A stretch of DNA of 64,000 nt from the human T2T-CHM13v2.0 reference genome, Homo sapiens (GCA_009914755.4 CP086569.2:15840001-15904000); one strand, 5' to 3'; numbered from the stretch's first letter, positions 19,030 to 26,265 are shown. Translations and numbers: made by a program. The notes: generated by a model from the sequence alone, not told the origin.

Positions 19030-19320
19030 TCAAAAGCCAAGCATAGTCTCTAATGCCTAGAATCCCAGCACTTCAAGCAGTTGATGGGGGAGAATTGCTT
19101 GAGGCCAGAAGTTTGAGACCACCTGCACAACATAGCAAGACTTCATCTCTGCAAAAACTAAAATAAAAAATTAGCTCAGCATTTTGACATGTGGCTGTAT
19201 TTCCAGCTACTGAGGAGCCTTAGGTGTGAGGATTGTTTGAGCCCAGGATTTGGAGGCTGAAGTGAGCTAAAATGGTGCAACTGCACCCCAATCTGGAATA
19301 GAGTACAAAACCCTGTAAAG
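19030..19320 (+). mobile_element. Old Alu (AluJ/FLAM-like). Its 3' end is the target of the full-length L1 insertion.
   Basis: aatcccagcacttcaagcag...gaggccagaagtttgagaccacctgcacaacatagcaagacttcatctctgcaaaaactaaaataaaaaattagc...tttccagctactgaggagcc...tgagcccaggatttggaggctgaagtgagctaaaatggtgcaactgcacccc. Confidence 0.7.
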
Positions 19321-19321
19321 A

Positions 19322-22300
19322 GAGGACAGCCAAGATGGCCGAATAGGAAGAGCTCCAGTCTACAGCTCCTGGCATGAGCGATGCAGAAGATGGGTGATTT
19401 CTGCATTTCCATCTGAGGTACCAGGTGCATCTCACTAGAGAGTGCCAGACAGTGGGCACAGGACAGTGGGTGGAGTGCACCCTGTGCGAGCTGAAGCACG
19501 GTGAGGCATTGCCTCACTTGGGAAGTGCAAGGGGTCAGGGAGTGCCCTTTCCTAGTCAAAGAAAGGGGTGACAGATGGCACCTGGAAAATCGGGTCACTC
19601 CCACCCTAATACTGCACTTTTCTGATGGGCTTAAAAAACGGCTCACCAGGAGATTATAACCCGCACCTGGCTCAGAGGGTCCTACACCTATGGAGTCTCG
19701 ATGATTGCTGGCACAGCAGTCTGAGATCAAACTGCAAGGTGGCAGCGATGCTGGGGGAGGGGTGCCTGCAATAGCCCAGGCTTGCTTAGGTAAACAAAGC
19801 AGCCAGGAAGCTCTAACTGGGTGGAGCCCACCACAGCTCAAGGAGGGCTGCCTGCCTCTGTAGGCTCCACCTCTGGGGACAAGGCACAGACAAACAAAAA
19901 GACAGCAGTAACCTCCGCAGACTTAAATGTCCCTGTCTGACAGTTTTGAAGAGAGGAGTGGTTCTCCCAACACACAGCTGGAGATCTGAGAATGGACAGG
20001 CCGCCTCCTAAAGTGGGTCGCTGACACCTGACCCCTGAGCAGCCTAAATGGGAGGCACCCCCCAGTAGGGGAAGACTGACACCTCACACGGCCAGTTACT
20101 CCTCTGAGACAAAACTTCCAGAGGAAGGATGAGACAGCAGCATTCACGGTTCATGAAAATACGCTGTTCTGCAGCCACTGCTGCTGATACCCAGGCAAAC
20201 AGCGTCTGGAGTGGATCTCTAGCAAACTCCAACAGACCTGCAGCTGAGGGTGCTGTCTGTTAGAAGGAAAATTAACAAACAGAAAGGACATCCACACCAA
20301 AAACCCATCTGTACATCACCATCATCAAAGACCAAAAGTAGTTAAAACCAGAAAGATGGGGAAAAAACAGAGCAGAAAAACTGGAAACTCCAAAAAGCAG
20401 AGTGCCTCTCCTCCTAGAAAGGAACACAGTTCCTCAACAGCAATGGAACAAAGCTGGACGGAGAATGACTTTGATGAGTTGAGAGAAGAAGGCTTCAGAT
20501 AATCAAACTACTCCGAGCTACAGGAGGAAATTCAAACCAAAGGCAAAGAAGTTAAAAACTTTGAAAACAATGTAGACGAATGTATAACTAGAATAATCAA
20601 CATAGAGAAGTGCTTAAAGGAGCTGATGGAGCTGAAAGCCAAGGCCCAAGAACTATGTGAAGAATGCAAAAGCCTCAGGAGTCGTTGTGATCACCTGGAA
20701 GAAAGGGTATCAGTGATGGAAGATGAAATGAATGAAATGAAGTGAGAAGGGAAGTTTAAAGAAAAAAGAATATAAAGATACAAACAAAGGCTCCAAGAAA
20801 TATGGCACTATGTGAAAAGACCAAATCTACATCTGATTGGTGTACCTAAAAGGGACAGGGAAAATGGAACCAAGTTGGAAAACACTCTGCAGGATATTAT
20901 TCAGGAGAACTTCCCCAATCTAGCAAGGCAGGCCAACATTCATATTCAGGAAATATAGAGAACACCACAAAGATACTCCTTGAGAAGAGCAACTCCAAGA
21001 CACGTAATTGTCAGATTCACCAAAGTTGAATTGAAGGAAAAAATGTTAAGGGCAGCCAGAGAGAAAGGTCAAGTTACCCACAAAGGGAAGCCCATCAGAC
21101 TAACAATGGATCTCTCAGCAAAAACTCTACAAGCCAGAAGAGAGGGGGATGCAATATTCAACATTCTTGAAGAAAAGAATTTTCAAACCAGAATTTCATA
21201 TCCAGCCAAATTAAGCTTCATAAGTGAAGGAGAAATAAAATACTTTACAGACAAGCAAATGCTGAGAGATTTTGTCACCATCAGGCCTGCCCTAAAAGAG
21301 CTACTGAAGGAAGCACTAAACATGGAAAGGAACAACTGGTACCAGCCATTGCAAAATTATGCCAAAATGTAAAGACCATCAAGACTAGGAAGAAACTGCA
21401 TCAATTAATGAGCCAAATAACCAGCTAACATCATAATAACAGGATCAAATTCACACATAACAATATTAACTTTAAATGTAAATGGACTAAATGCTGCAAT
21501 TAAAAGACACAGATTGGCAAATTGGATAAAGAGTCAAGACCCATCAGTGTGTTGTGTTCAGGAAACCCATCTCACATGCAGAGACACACACAGGCTCAAA
21601 ATAAAAGGATGGAGGAAGATCTACAAAGCAAATGGAAAACAAAAAAAAGGCAAGGGTTGCAATCCTAGTCTCTGATAAAACAGACTTTAAACAAAGATCA
21701 AAAGAGACAAAGAAGGGCATTACATAATGGTAAAGGGATCAATTCAACAAGAAGAGCTAACTATCCTAAATATATATGCACCCAATACAGGAGCACCCAG
21801 ATTCATAAAGCAAGTCCTGAGTGACCTACAAAGAGACTTAGAATCCCAAATAATAATAATGGGAGACTTTAACACCCCACTGTCAACATTAGATAGATCG
21901 AGACAGAAAGTCAACAAGGATACACAGTAATTGAACTCAGCTCTGCAGCAAGAGGACCTAATAGACATCTACAGAATTTTCCACCCCAAATCAACTGAAT
22001 ATACACTATTTTTCAGCACCACACCACACCTATTCCAAAATTGACCATATAGTTGGAAGTAAAGCACTCCTCAGCAAATGTAAAAGAAGAGAAATTATAA
22101 CAAACAGTCTCTCAGATCACATTGAAAAAAAACTAGGACTCAGGATTAAGAAACTCACTCAAAACTGCTCAACTACATGGAAACTGAACAACCTGCTCCT
22201 GAATGACTACTGGGTACATAAGGAAATGAAGGCAGAAATAAAGATGTTCTTTGAAACCAATGAGAACAAAGACACAACATACCAGAATCTCTGGGACACA

Positions 22301-25586: not shown

Positions 25587-25723
25587 GGAGATATACCTAA
25601 TGCTAAATGACGAGTTAATGGGTGCAGCACACCAGCATGGCACATGTATACGTATGTAACTAACTTGCACATTATGCACATGTACTCTAAAATTTAAAGT
25701 ATAATAATAGTAAAATTTAAAAC
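25587..25723 (+). mobile_element. Second L1 3'-end copy of ~137 bp. It lies directly after the A-tail of the full-length L1 but inside the same TSD.
   Basis: ggagatatacctaatgctaaatgacgagttaatgggtgcagcacaccagcatggcacatgtatacgtatgtaactaacttgcacattatgcacatgtactctaaaatttaaagtataataata. It is ~10% diverged from the homologous stretch at 25430-25540. Confidence 0.8.
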
Positions 25724-25739
25724 AAACCCTGTAAAGAAA

Positions 25740-26265
25740 TAAGGACAGAGAAGAAACAAAAATGGAAGGAGGAAGAGAGGAAAGAAAGAAAGAAGGAAGG
25801 AAGGAAGGATGGAAGGAACGAAGGAAGGAAGGAAGGAAGGAAGAAAGAAAGAGAAAGAAAAGGAAGGAAAGAAAGAACGAAAGAAAGAAAGAAAGAAAGA
25901 AAGAAGAAAGAAAGGAAAGAAAGAAAGAAAGAAAGAGGGAGGGAGAGATGGAGGGAGTGTGGGAAAGAAACAAGGAAGGCAGGAAGGAAGGCAGGAGGGA
26001 GGGAAGGAAGGAAAGAAGGGAGGGAGGGAGAAAGGAAGGAAGGAAGGAATGAAGGAAAGAAGGAAGGAAAGGAAATAAGGAAGGAAGGAGAAAGAGACAG
26101 AAAGAGAAAGGAGGGAAAGGAAGAAGAAAGAGAAAGAAAGAAAGAAAGAAAGAGAAAGAAAGAAAGAAAAAAAAAGAGAAAGAGAGAGCAGAAAGAAAGA
26201 AAAGCAGAAAGAAAGAGAAAAAGAGAAGAAATAAATCTCAAAAGGAGAAAACCAGTGTAATAAAT
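25740..26265. repeat. Long purine-strand microsatellite (GGAA)n/(GAAA)n/(AGGG)n of ~520 bp. It is probably the degenerated tail of the old Alu at 19030-19320, which the L1 insertion separated from the Alu body.
   Basis: ggaaggaaggaaggatggaaggaacgaaggaaggaaggaaggaaggaagaaagaaagagaaagaaaagg... is uninterrupted purine on the plus strand. Every ORF spanning it (25530..25973, 25694..26296, 25717..26277, 25762..26052, 25809..26078) is a low-complexity artefact. Confidence 0.9.

What the first reader, a model, noticed from the sequence alone, without database searches (positions are those of the whole stretch)
19030..26265. Full-length L1PA with a perfect 14-bp TSD, inserted between an old Alu body and its microsatellite-expanded tail, with an extra L1 3' copy inside the TSD
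The 6.26-kb L1 (19322-25586) is bounded by aaaccctgtaaaga at 19308-19321 and 25724-25737 (14/14 identical). The TSD begins AAAA, consistent with L1 endonuclease cleavage.

The upstream TSD copy lies in the 3' end of an AluJ-like element (19030-19320). The ~520-bp (GGAA/GAAA)n array starts a few bases after the downstream TSD copy. The simplest reading is that the L1 landed in the already expanded A-tail of the Alu.

Between the L1 tail and the downstream TSD copy there is a second 137-bp L1 3'-end copy (25587-25723). It is ~10% diverged from the first and has its own short A-rich end. A tandem L1 3' end enclosed by one TSD suggests template switching or reslippage during reverse transcription, or a tail-targeted nested insertion. 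Either is uncommon.

The element has a complete 5'UTR, including the antisense-promoter region, but dead ORFs: an ORF1 stop and ORF2 ATG mutated to ATA. An 83-bp tandem duplication sits in ORF2 at 25088-25253.
Basis: seen in the sequence. Interest (0 to 1): 0.5.

Follow-up and report, generated by a model that had tools for sequence, protein, structure and literature searches.

The report
Full-length L1 with doubled tail end
This is an ordinary stack of primate "jumping gene" fossils: a dead full-length LINE-1, carrying a second short copy of its own tail end, sits inside an old Alu. Only the doubled tail end is slightly unusual.

Summary

**Structure**
- A 6,265-bp full-length, coding-dead L1PA element lies at 19322-25586.
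- A second 137-bp L1 3' end follows it at 25587-25723.
- One perfect 14-bp target-site duplication (TSD), AAACCCTGTAAAGA, encloses both. It occurs only twice in the window.
- New here: the old Alu has its own TSD (AAATAAA[C/T]CTCAAAAG, 19021-19036 and 26229-26244, 15/16). It encloses the Alu body, the L1 composite and the 491-bp (GGAA/GAAA)n array. The array is therefore the Alu's tail, and the L1 arrived later.

**Age and type**
- The L1 keeps the 129-bp 5'UTR segment that was lost within L1PA3.
- It differs at 4.2% of sites that are invariant in nine reference L1s.
- Both 3' ends have the same 3'UTR subtype and 5-6 private changes per 127 bp, so they are the same age.
- The 83-bp ORF2 duplication is perfect and found in no other L1 examined, so it is much younger than the insertion.

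**Mechanism**
- Most likely (about 0.45): one reverse-transcription event with a template jump, giving an L1/L1 chimera.
- Main rival (about 0.3): a near-contemporaneous L1 insertion into the first L1's tail.

All parts are known kinds. Interest is low.

The parts
19021..19036 (+). Upstream copy of the Alu's own TSD (AAATAAACCTCAAAAG)
   Evidence: 15/16 match to 26229-26244. It was the best 16-mer match between the two flanks and was reached by 1 of 500 shuffles.
19037..19321 (+). Old, strongly diverged dimeric Alu body (AluJ-like). Its last 14 nt are the L1 target site.
   Evidence: Nine other related copies in the window at 65-76% identity. About 74% identity to an AluJ consensus recalled from memory, against 69% to AluS; this is a lead only. 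Sequence read.
19308..19321 (+). Upstream copy of the L1 TSD (AAACCCTGTAAAGA)
   Evidence: 14/14 identical to 25724-25737 and unique to these two sites. 0 of 500 shuffles matched.
19322..20355 (+). Complete L1 5'UTR (1,034 bp), including the ~129-bp segment at ~20098-20227 that younger L1 subfamilies lack
   Evidence: The 5' end aligns with reference contigs L006 and L013. The 129-bp block is present here and in L003 and L007, and absent in L006 and L013. Literature: 10.1101/429613, PMC5860796.
20356..21372 (+). ORF1 remnant: 338 codons, no frameshift, 4 internal stops
   Evidence: Pfam Tnp_22_trimer, Transposase_22 and Tnp_22_dsRBD. tblastn shows one HSP at 85% identity. PDB LINE-1 ORF1p, E=1.7e-69. 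Stops listed.
21436..25336 (+). ORF2 remnant: ATA in place of ATG, at least 7 frame changes, at least 11 stops
   Evidence: Pfam Exo_endo_phos and RVT_1. tblastn gives 8 HSPs in alternating frames. PDB LINE-1 ORF2p, E=1.7e-202.
25089..25254 (+). Perfect 83-bp tandem duplication inside ORF2 (2 x 83 bp), private to this element
   Evidence: TRF period 83. 84-nt run of identity. Every other L1 in the window and in 20 outside contigs lacks it; their alignments split at this point.
25337..25586 (+). L1 3'UTR (copy 1 of the terminal ~127 nt is 25425-25551) plus a ~50-nt A-rich, T-interrupted tail (25537-25586)
25587..25723 (+). Second, 5'-truncated L1 3' end (copy 2) with a short degenerate A-rich end (GTAAAATTTAAAAC). 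Same orientation, and it directly abuts the first tail.
   Evidence: 91% identity to copy 1 and 93% to the L1 3' end at 11500-11626. Same 3'UTR subtype as copy 1, with 5-6 private changes per 127 nt.
25724..25737 (+). Downstream copy of the L1 TSD
25738..26228 (+). Alu A-tail evolved into a 491-bp (GGAA/GAAA)n purine array (96% A+G)
   Evidence: TRF periods 4 and 12. Composition A 286, G 187, C 10, T 8. It lies inside the Alu TSD.
26229..26244 (+). Downstream copy of the Alu TSD (AAATAAATCTCAAAAG)

Best explanation
This is a three-layer retroelement fossil.

1. An AluJ-type SINE inserted first. Its A-tail later evolved into a (GGAA/GAAA)n array.
2. Roughly 20-30 Myr ago, the L1 endonuclease nicked the bottom strand at the T-run opposite CAAAAC, near the end of the Alu body. 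It nicked the top strand 14 nt downstream, at the start of the tail.
3. One target-primed reverse transcription event then laid down the whole composite. The reverse transcriptase first copied the last ~137 nt plus a short A-tail of one L1 RNA, probably a broken 3' fragment. It then jumped to the poly(A) end of a full-length L1 RNA of the same subfamily and copied it to its 5' end. The result is TSD, full-length L1, A-tail, 137-bp L1 3' end, short tail, TSD. This is an L1/L1 version of the known U6/L1- and Alu/L1-type chimeric insertions.
4. The element has since decayed, and it much later gained an 83-bp slippage duplication in ORF2.

Shown: the nesting order, both TSDs, the full-length but dead status, the same subtype and equal age of the two 3' ends, and the youth of the 83-bp duplication. 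Inferred: that both L1 pieces came from a single event, and the template jump itself.
For: - **One TSD encloses both L1 pieces.** It is a non-A-rich 14/14 TSD.
- **Copy 2 has no detectable TSD of its own.** The longest word shared by its two flanks is TAAAAT, a length reached in 1864 of 2000 shuffles.
- **The arrangement fits a chimera.** Copy 2 is in the same orientation, is 5'-truncated, and is joined directly to the end of the first A-tail. This is the architecture described for L1 chimeras: a full-length 5' partner, a 5'-truncated L1 3' partner, sense orientation and a single TSD (10.1101/2025.02.02.635956).
- **Both 3' ends share one narrow 3'UTR subtype.** The subtype is GCTAAATG / TTAATGGG / CAGCATGG / AACTAACC / CACATTG. 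Only 2 of 23 other L1PA 3' ends examined have it.
- **Both 3' ends are the same age as the L1 body.** Copy 1 has 6 private changes and copy 2 has 5-6, per 127 nt. That equals the 4.2% private divergence of the L1 body (175 of 4162 sites). Their pairwise difference, 12 of 127, is about twice that figure.
- **The right edge of copy 2 coincides with the L1/TSD boundary.** This follows naturally if reverse transcription started there. It would be a coincidence for a DNA-level duplication.
Against: - Equal age and equal subtype are also expected if a second L1 of the same subfamily inserted into the fresh A-tail soon afterwards.
- In an A-rich target, a second TSD would be unrecognisable, so its absence says little.
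- The 13-14 nt after copy 2 are not pure A (TAAAATTTAAAAC). They loosely resemble the end of the first tail (TAAAATAAAA).
- The two copies share no source-specific variant that would tie them to one RNA.
- No orthologous locus could be retrieved.
- The frequency of L1-to-L1 template jumps in vivo is not known.
Confidence: 0.45

Rival explanations
1. Two events. The full-length L1 inserted with the 14-bp TSD. Soon afterwards a second, heavily 5'-truncated L1 of the same subfamily inserted in the same orientation near the 3' end of its A-tail, a preferred endonuclease target. Its own TSD and tail are hidden in the A-rich sequence.
For: - A-rich stretches are known insertion hotspots, and nested insertions are extremely common, with about 300,000 exact events in the human genome (PMC2836564).
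- The tail before copy 2 ends in T/AAAA-type sites.
- TAAAATAAAA before copy 2 resembles TAAAATTTAAAA after it.
- Equal divergence is compatible with this reading.
Against: - The flank similarity is at chance level, reached in 1864 of 2000 shuffles.
- Only 13-14 nt are available to hold the new tail, a second TSD and the remainder of the old tail.
- The inserted element must belong to the same narrow 3'UTR subtype, seen in 2 of 23 other copies. All later subfamilies carry G/G at the diagnostic sites.
- The event therefore has to fall within the remaining activity window of that subfamily.
Confidence: 0.3
2. 3' transduction. The source L1 lay immediately upstream of a resident 137-bp L1 3' fragment. 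That fragment arose either because the source had inserted into an older L1 3'UTR or through one of the mechanisms above. Transcription read through the source's own poly(A) signal and used the signal of the downstream fragment. The whole RNA then retrotransposed in one event.
For: - A single TSD encloses L1, an A-tail, extra sequence and a short A-rich end. This is the formal layout of a 3' transduction.
- The extra piece ends where an L1 poly(A) signal would lie.
Against: - A randomly encountered resident L1 fragment should usually be of an older subtype and more diverged. Copy 2 has the identical subtype, seen in 2 of 23 other copies, and divergence equal to the L1 body.
- GGAGATAT, which would be the source's TSD, is a poor endonuclease site.
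- If the source already had this arrangement, the question of its origin is only moved back one step.
Confidence: 0.1
3. DNA-level origin or reversed order. Either the last ~140-160 bp was tandemly duplicated by slippage very soon after insertion. Or the 137-bp fragment inserted first with the 14-bp TSD and the full-length L1 later landed exactly at its 5' junction.
For: - The same element shows that slippage duplications do occur, in the form of the 83-bp duplication.
- AAAG occurs on both sides of the full-length L1 and could be a minimal TSD.
Against: - A duplication would have to end exactly at the L1/TSD boundary. It would also have to be as old as the insertion, since the copies differ at 12 of 127 sites and share no derived changes.
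- The reversed order needs a full-length L1 to hit a window of about 2 bp with essentially no TSD of its own.
Confidence: 0.07

Closest known systems
Full-length L1PA insertions of the 129-bp-containing group (L1PA3-long to about L1PA6; most like L1PA5)
   Same: - The 5'UTR starts at the canonical site and includes the ZNF93-site 129-bp block.
- It has a 338-codon ORF1, a 63-bp spacer, a 1275-codon-equivalent ORF2, a 3'UTR, an A-tail and a 14-bp TSD.
- Private divergence is about 4%.
   Different: - It carries a private 83-bp tandem duplication.
- It is followed by a second L1 3' end inside the same TSD.
- No formal Dfam or RepeatMasker subfamily call could be made here.
L1 chimeric insertions (U6/L1, Alu/L1, mRNA/L1; template switching or RNA ligation; Buzdin-type chimeric retrogenes; Law and Burns 2025, 10.1101/2025.02.02.635956)
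   Same: - The 5' partner is full-length and in sense orientation.
- The 3' partner is a 5'-truncated L1 3' end.
- Both lie within one TSD at a T-rich nick site.
- Both partners appear to be of the same age.
   Different: - The 5' partner here is itself a polyadenylated full-length L1, so an A-tail sits at the junction.
- The RtcB-type ligation proposed for U6 would not apply.
- Simultaneous arrival is inferred from divergence, not from cross-species presence/absence.
Tail-targeted nested (head-to-tail) retroelement insertions
   Same: A same-orientation element sits directly after the A-tail of another element.
   Different: - No separate TSD is detectable.
- Almost no tail sequence remains downstream of the inner element.
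- The outer non-A-rich TSD encloses both elements.
L1 3' transduction
   Same: The layout is L1, A-tail, extra sequence and an A-rich end, all within one TSD.
   Different: - The extra sequence is L1 3'UTR of the same subtype and age, not unique flanking DNA.
- No source locus is known.
Microsatellites born from Alu poly(A) tails (PMC3812793)
   Same: An A-rich or purine-rich array begins where the Alu body ends and lies inside the Alu's TSD.
   Different: At 491 bp it is long, and an L1 insertion now separates it from its Alu body.

Membership tests
LINE-1 (L1PA) full-length TPRT insertion | Complete 5'UTR starting at the canonical L1 5' end | tested here: met
   Alignment with L006 and L013 5' ends, and CAAGATGGCCG at 19331. 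L006/L013 cover L1 positions 7-771 and L003 covers 92-5851.
LINE-1 (L1PA) full-length TPRT insertion | ORF1 (coiled-coil/RRM/CTD) followed by ORF2 (endonuclease, RT) on one strand | tested here: met
   Pfam hits, tblastn with intact ORF1/ORF2 proteins, and PDB LINE-1 ORF1p and ORF2p matches.
LINE-1 (L1PA) full-length TPRT insertion | 3' A-rich tail and a flanking TSD of about 7-20 bp | tested here: met
   A ~50-nt tail and a 14/14 TSD, with 0 of 500 shuffles matching.
LINE-1 (L1PA) full-length TPRT insertion | First-strand nick at a 5'-TTTT/AA-3'-like site | tested here: inconclusive
   The inferred bottom-strand site is GGGTTT(T)/(T)GT. The primer end is T-rich, but the two bases 3' of the nick are not AA.
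LINE-1 (L1PA) full-length TPRT insertion | Retrotransposition competence (intact ORFs) | tested here: not met
   Four internal ORF1 stops, ATA start in ORF2, at least 7 frame changes and at least 11 stops in ORF2. It is a fossil, not an active element.
L1PA subfamily with the 129-bp 5'UTR block (older than L1PA3-short, L1PA2 and L1HS) | Presence of the 129-bp ZNF93-site segment | tested here: met
   The segment is at ~20098-20227. It is present here and in L003 and L007, and absent in L006 and L013. Literature.
L1PA subfamily with the 129-bp 5'UTR block (older than L1PA3-short, L1PA2 and L1HS) | Formal subfamily call against Dfam/Repbase consensi | not testable with these tools
   No consensus library was available. 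"L1PA5-like" rests on the 3'UTR subtype series, 4.2% private divergence and recalled consensus sequences.
Alu (AluJ) | ~280-bp dimeric SINE related to other Alus, with an A-rich tail and its own TSD | tested here: met
   Nine related copies in the window, a 15/16 TSD enclosing body and tail, and a purine array at the tail position.
Alu (AluJ) | J-type diagnostic positions | tested here: inconclusive
   74% identity to AluJ against 69% to AluS, using consensi recalled from memory. This is a lead, not a curated test.
L1 chimeric insertion by template switching | Same orientation, 5'-truncated L1 as the 3' part, full-length 5' partner, and one TSD around both | tested here: met
   Criteria as described in 10.1101/2025.02.02.635956.
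L1 chimeric insertion by template switching | Both parts arrive at the same time (cross-species presence/absence) | not testable with these tools
   Flank ORFs were absent from the protein collection, and the metagenome scan gave only a chance hit. The proxy, equal divergence and equal subtype, is met.
Independent nested insertion | Inner element flanked by its own TSD | tested here: inconclusive
   The best shared word is 6 nt, reached in 1864 of 2000 shuffles. In A-rich sequence this neither shows nor excludes a TSD.
L1 3' transduction | Unique non-L1 flanking DNA of a source locus between two poly(A) tracts | tested here: not met
   The extra 137 bp is L1 3'UTR itself, of the same subtype as the element.
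L1 3' transduction | Identifiable source or sibling locus sharing the transduced sequence | not testable with these tools
   No primate genome search was available.
Twin priming (5' inversion) | Two L1 segments in opposite orientation within one TSD | tested here: not met
   Both 3' ends are on the + strand. The neighbouring L1 at 13294-18668 does show this anatomy.

The most novel reading that the evidence does not exclude
The locus preserves an end-to-end template jump from one L1 RNA, a short 3' fragment, to the poly(A) end of a second, full-length L1 RNA during a single TPRT event. Surveys of L1 chimeras do not catalogue this L1/L1 class, because both partners are annotated simply as L1. 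If such pairs are recurrent and match in subfamily genome-wide, they would give a direct in vivo readout of ORF2p template-jumping frequency.
Probability: 0.4. Interest if true: 0.3.

Novelty: already known. Interest (0 to 1): 0.12.

Why it matters
It matters little on its own. Every layer is a well-described retroelement phenomenon:
- an Alu tail turned into a microsatellite;
- an L1 insertion with a TSD at an Alu 3' end;
- decayed ORFs;
- a slippage duplication;
- a tandem L1 3' end.

The element is inactive. The only mildly useful point is methodological. Pairs of the form "L1, A-tail, short same-subtype L1 3' end" inside one non-A-rich TSD could be counted genome-wide. That count would help separate L1-to-L1 template jumping from tail-targeted nesting, and existing chimera catalogues do not cover this class.

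Tried and rejected
- **Orthologous or empty-site comparison.** Exact look-ups of two flank ORFs (26418-26783 +, 18729-19040 -) found nothing. A homologue search with the 103-aa upstream flank ORF found nothing. The protein collection evidently does not hold ORFs from this non-coding primate DNA.
- **Metagenome DNA scan.** A scan for the 20-mer spanning the Alu end and TSD returned one AT-rich microbial contig with unrelated flanks. It was a chance match.
- **Viral-contig scan.** A scan for an L1 3'UTR pattern found nothing.
- **Separate TSD around the 137-bp copy.** Only chance-level A-rich similarity was found.
- **Shared derived variants.** I looked for variants that would tie the two 3' ends to one source RNA and found none in 127 nt. 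This is uninformative at that length.
- **Rfam scan of the whole window.** No hit.
- **Literature consensus sequences for a formal L1PA subfamily call.** None were retrievable as text.
- **Twin priming for the extra 3' end.** Rejected because both copies are in the same orientation.
- **Recent DNA duplication of the 3' end.** Rejected because the copies differ at 12 of 127 sites, unlike the perfect 83-bp duplication.
- **Caveat on the outside L1 references.** Contigs L002-L021 are primate contamination in bacterial assemblies, and some are evidently mosaic assemblies. For example, L006 combines a young-type 5'UTR with an old-type 3'UTR. I used them only to define the common state at each column.
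Full report
**1. The observation**

- AAACCCTGTAAAGA occurs at 19308-19321 and 25724-25737 and nowhere else on either strand of the window. A 14/14 match between the two flanks was never reached in 500 shuffles.
- The upstream copy reads ...GAGTACA|AAACCCTGTAAAGA|GAGGACAGCCAAGATGG. The downstream copy reads ...AATTTAAAAC|AAACCCTGTAAAGA|AATAAGGACAG.
- The 14-mer starts AAAC, not AAAA. Only the upstream copy is preceded by a fourth A.
- If a one-base change in the A-run length is allowed, the match extends by "AC" to 16-17 nt. That extension is not significant.
- The implied first-strand nick site on the bottom strand is GGGTTT(T)/(T)GT. Its primer end is T-rich, as L1 endonuclease sites are, but it is not the canonical TTTT/AA.

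**2. The L1**

*Identity and completeness*
- The interval 19322-25586 (6,265 bp) is a full-length L1. Its 5' end lines up within about 3 nt of the 5' ends of outside L1 contigs. It retains the CAAGATGGCCG motif at 19331.
- The 5'UTR is 1,034 bp. It contains a ~129-bp block (~20098-20227) that is present in reference L1s L003 and L007 but absent from L006 and L013.
- This is the ZNF93-site segment. It was lost within L1PA3 and is absent from L1PA2 and L1HS (10.1101/429613; PMC5860796).

*Coding state*
- ORF1 (20356-21372) is 338 codons in a single frame with four internal stops, at 20500, 20743, 20773 and 20956.
- ORF1 carries the three L1 ORF1p Pfam domains. It matches PDB LINE-1 ORF1p at E=1.7e-69.
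- After a 63-bp spacer, ORF2 (21436-25336) begins with ATA. It needs at least 7 frame changes and contains at least 11 stops when aligned to intact 1275-aa ORF2 proteins.
- ORF2 has Exo_endo_phos and RVT_1 domains. It matches PDB LINE-1 ORF2p at E=1.7e-202.

*Age*
- At 4,162 columns that are invariant in nine outside L1 references, this element differs at 175 (4.2%).
- At the roughly 0.17%/Myr neutral rate commonly used for L1 dating (my recollection of Khan et al. 2006), this is about 25 Myr.
- Taken together with the 129-bp block and the 3'UTR subtype described below, it looks like L1PA5, within a range of L1PA4-6. This label is an inference. No consensus library was available.

**3. The 83-bp duplication**
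- TRF finds period 83 with 2.1 copies.
- In the register 25089-25171 / 25172-25254 the two units are identical, with an 84-nt run of identity.
- No other L1 in the window, and none of the 20 outside L1s, has it. Their alignments all split at exactly this point.
- Two 83-nt copies as old as the element should differ at about 7 sites (2 x 4.2%). They differ at none.
- The duplication is therefore a much later DNA-level slippage event, between short GGAT..AAAA microhomologies. It adds one more frameshift.

**4. The Alu and the purine array**
- 19037-19321 is a strongly diverged dimeric Alu. Nine related copies lie in the window at 65-76% identity. It is closer to a recalled AluJ consensus than to a recalled AluS consensus.
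The match is 15/16. It is the best match between the flanks and was reached by 1 of 500 shuffles.
- This TSD encloses the Alu body, the L1 composite and the 491-bp array at 25738-26228. That array is 96% purine, with TRF periods 4 and 12.
- This shows that the array is the Alu's A-tail turned microsatellite, a well-known fate (PMC3812793). It also shows that the L1 came second.
- The L1 TSD is the last 14 nt of the Alu body (compare ...GAGACCCTGTCTCAAAA in Alu consensi). The L1 therefore sits at the body/tail junction, not inside the array.
- Whether the tail had already expanded at that time cannot be told from the sequence.

**5. The second 3' end**

25587-25723 is a 5'-truncated L1 3' end on the same strand. 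It begins at GGAGATATACC directly after the last A of the first tail. It ends in ...AATAATAGTAAAATTTAAAAC directly before the downstream TSD.

To judge its relation to the first 3' end I collected comparators: three other L1PA 3' ends in the window and 20 more from primate-contaminated "bacterial" contigs.

These define a graded series of 3'UTR states:
- **Older:** G-TAAATG / CAACATGG / AACAAACC / CACGTTG.
- **Intermediate:** GCTAAATG / TTAATGGG / CAGCATGG / AACTAACC / CACATTG.
- **Younger:** GCTAGATG / TTAGTGGG, then CACAATG, then the ACA of L1HS-Ta.

What the comparison shows:
- Both copies in the finding carry the same intermediate combination. Only 2 of the 23 other ends share it: L002 and the fragment at 11360-11656.
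- Against that subtype consensus, copy 1 has 6 private changes and copy 2 has 5-6, in 127 nt. That is 4-5%, the same as the 4.2% of the L1 body.
- The two copies differ from each other at 12 of 127 sites, about twice the private rate. They share no derived change.
- The roughly 10% divergence therefore means [quoted passage not shown]. It does not mean "different sources".

**6. Mechanism**

*Single TPRT event with a template jump (about 0.45).* This reading is suggested by three things:
- A single non-A-rich TSD encloses both pieces.
- The right edge of copy 2 coincides with the L1/TSD boundary.
- The two pieces have the same subtype and the same age.

Reverse transcription starts at the downstream TSD. 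It copies a short L1 3'-end template, then jumps to the poly(A) end of a full-length L1 RNA and runs to its 5' end. This matches the architecture of known L1 chimeras: a sense-oriented full-length 5' partner, a 5'-truncated L1 as 3' partner, and one TSD (10.1101/2025.02.02.635956). The difference is that an L1 is the 5' partner here.

*Near-contemporaneous nested insertion into the fresh A-tail (about 0.3).* This is the main rival. Nesting is extremely common, and A-rich sites are insertion hotspots (PMC2836564). In A-rich sequence a second TSD would be invisible. The flanks of copy 2 share only TAAAAT, which is at chance level. Two points count against it. Very little room, 13-14 nt, is left for a new tail plus a TSD. 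The inserted element also has to be of the same narrow subtype.

*3' transduction of a resident L1 fragment (about 0.1).* This is disfavoured because a random resident fragment would usually be older and of another subtype.

*Early DNA duplication, or the reversed order of insertion (about 0.07 together).* Both need positional coincidences.

My rough prior estimates, from general knowledge of copy numbers and chimera frequencies, put the template-jump and nesting routes within a few-fold of each other. The ranking is therefore soft.

**7. What could not be done**

The decisive test is the state of the orthologous site in other primates.
- The flank ORFs are not in the protein collections.
- The one metagenome scan gave a chance hit.
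- No primate genome can be searched with these tools.

**8. Verdict**

The finding is real and correctly read, and I have sharpened it with four additions: the Alu TSD, the subtype and age equality of the two 3' ends, the dating of the 83-bp duplication, and the full extent of ORF decay.

Biologically it is an ordinary pile of retroelement fossils of known kinds in an L1-rich, AT-rich region. The doubled 3' end is uncommon but falls within described mechanisms. Interest is low (0.12). Novelty: already known.

Noticed in passing
window 13280-18679: A second L1 about 360 bp upstream has classic twin-priming (5'-inversion) anatomy. Its 3' part lies on the - strand (13294-15717, L1 positions ~3727-6228). 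Its 5' part is inverted onto the + strand (15717-18668, L1 positions ~731-3752), with a 26-nt overlap at the junction. A candidate TSD is ATGACAGACAG / ATAACAGACAG at 13280-13290 and 18669-18679 (10/11). It also carries the 129-bp 5'UTR block (15763-15892) but has a younger-type 3'UTR (GCTAGA.. / TTAGTGGG).
   Followed up: partly
window 37630-40386 (- strand): A 5'-truncated L1 of an older 3'UTR type (CAACATGG) whose A-tail has turned into a long (GAAA)n array. This is the same tail-to-microsatellite fate as the Alu in the finding.
   Followed up: partly
window 11360-11656 (+ strand): A ~300-bp 5'-truncated L1 3' fragment with an (AAT)n tail. Its 3'UTR subtype is the same as that of the two copies in the finding.
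   Followed up: partly
loci L002-L021 (GTDB species-representative genome contigs): Twenty contigs deposited as bacterial or archaeal genomes (Streptomyces, Bifidobacterium, Mycobacterium and others) are primate L1 sequence, i.e. host or human contamination. Four carry an intact 1275-aa ORF2 (L006, L007, L013, L015). Some look like mosaic assemblies of different L1 subfamilies; for example, L006 combines a young 5'UTR with an old-type 3'UTR.
   Followed up: partly
L020 ~2490-2656: This contaminant L1 contig shows a ~56-bp tandem repeat within the L1 3'UTR (L1 positions ~6092-6147 occur twice). It could be a real duplication or an assembly artefact.
   Followed up: no
L018 877-1007: A young (ACG-type) L1 3' fragment is 5'-truncated within 3 nt of the position where copy 2 of the finding starts (GCATTGGGAGATATACC). 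With so few short fragments sampled, this may be coincidence.
   Followed up: no
window 19176-19841 (- strand): A 221-codon open frame runs antisense through the first ~520 nt of the L1 5'UTR, across the TSD and into the Alu right arm. It is probably a chance ORF in the antisense-promoter region.
   Followed up: no
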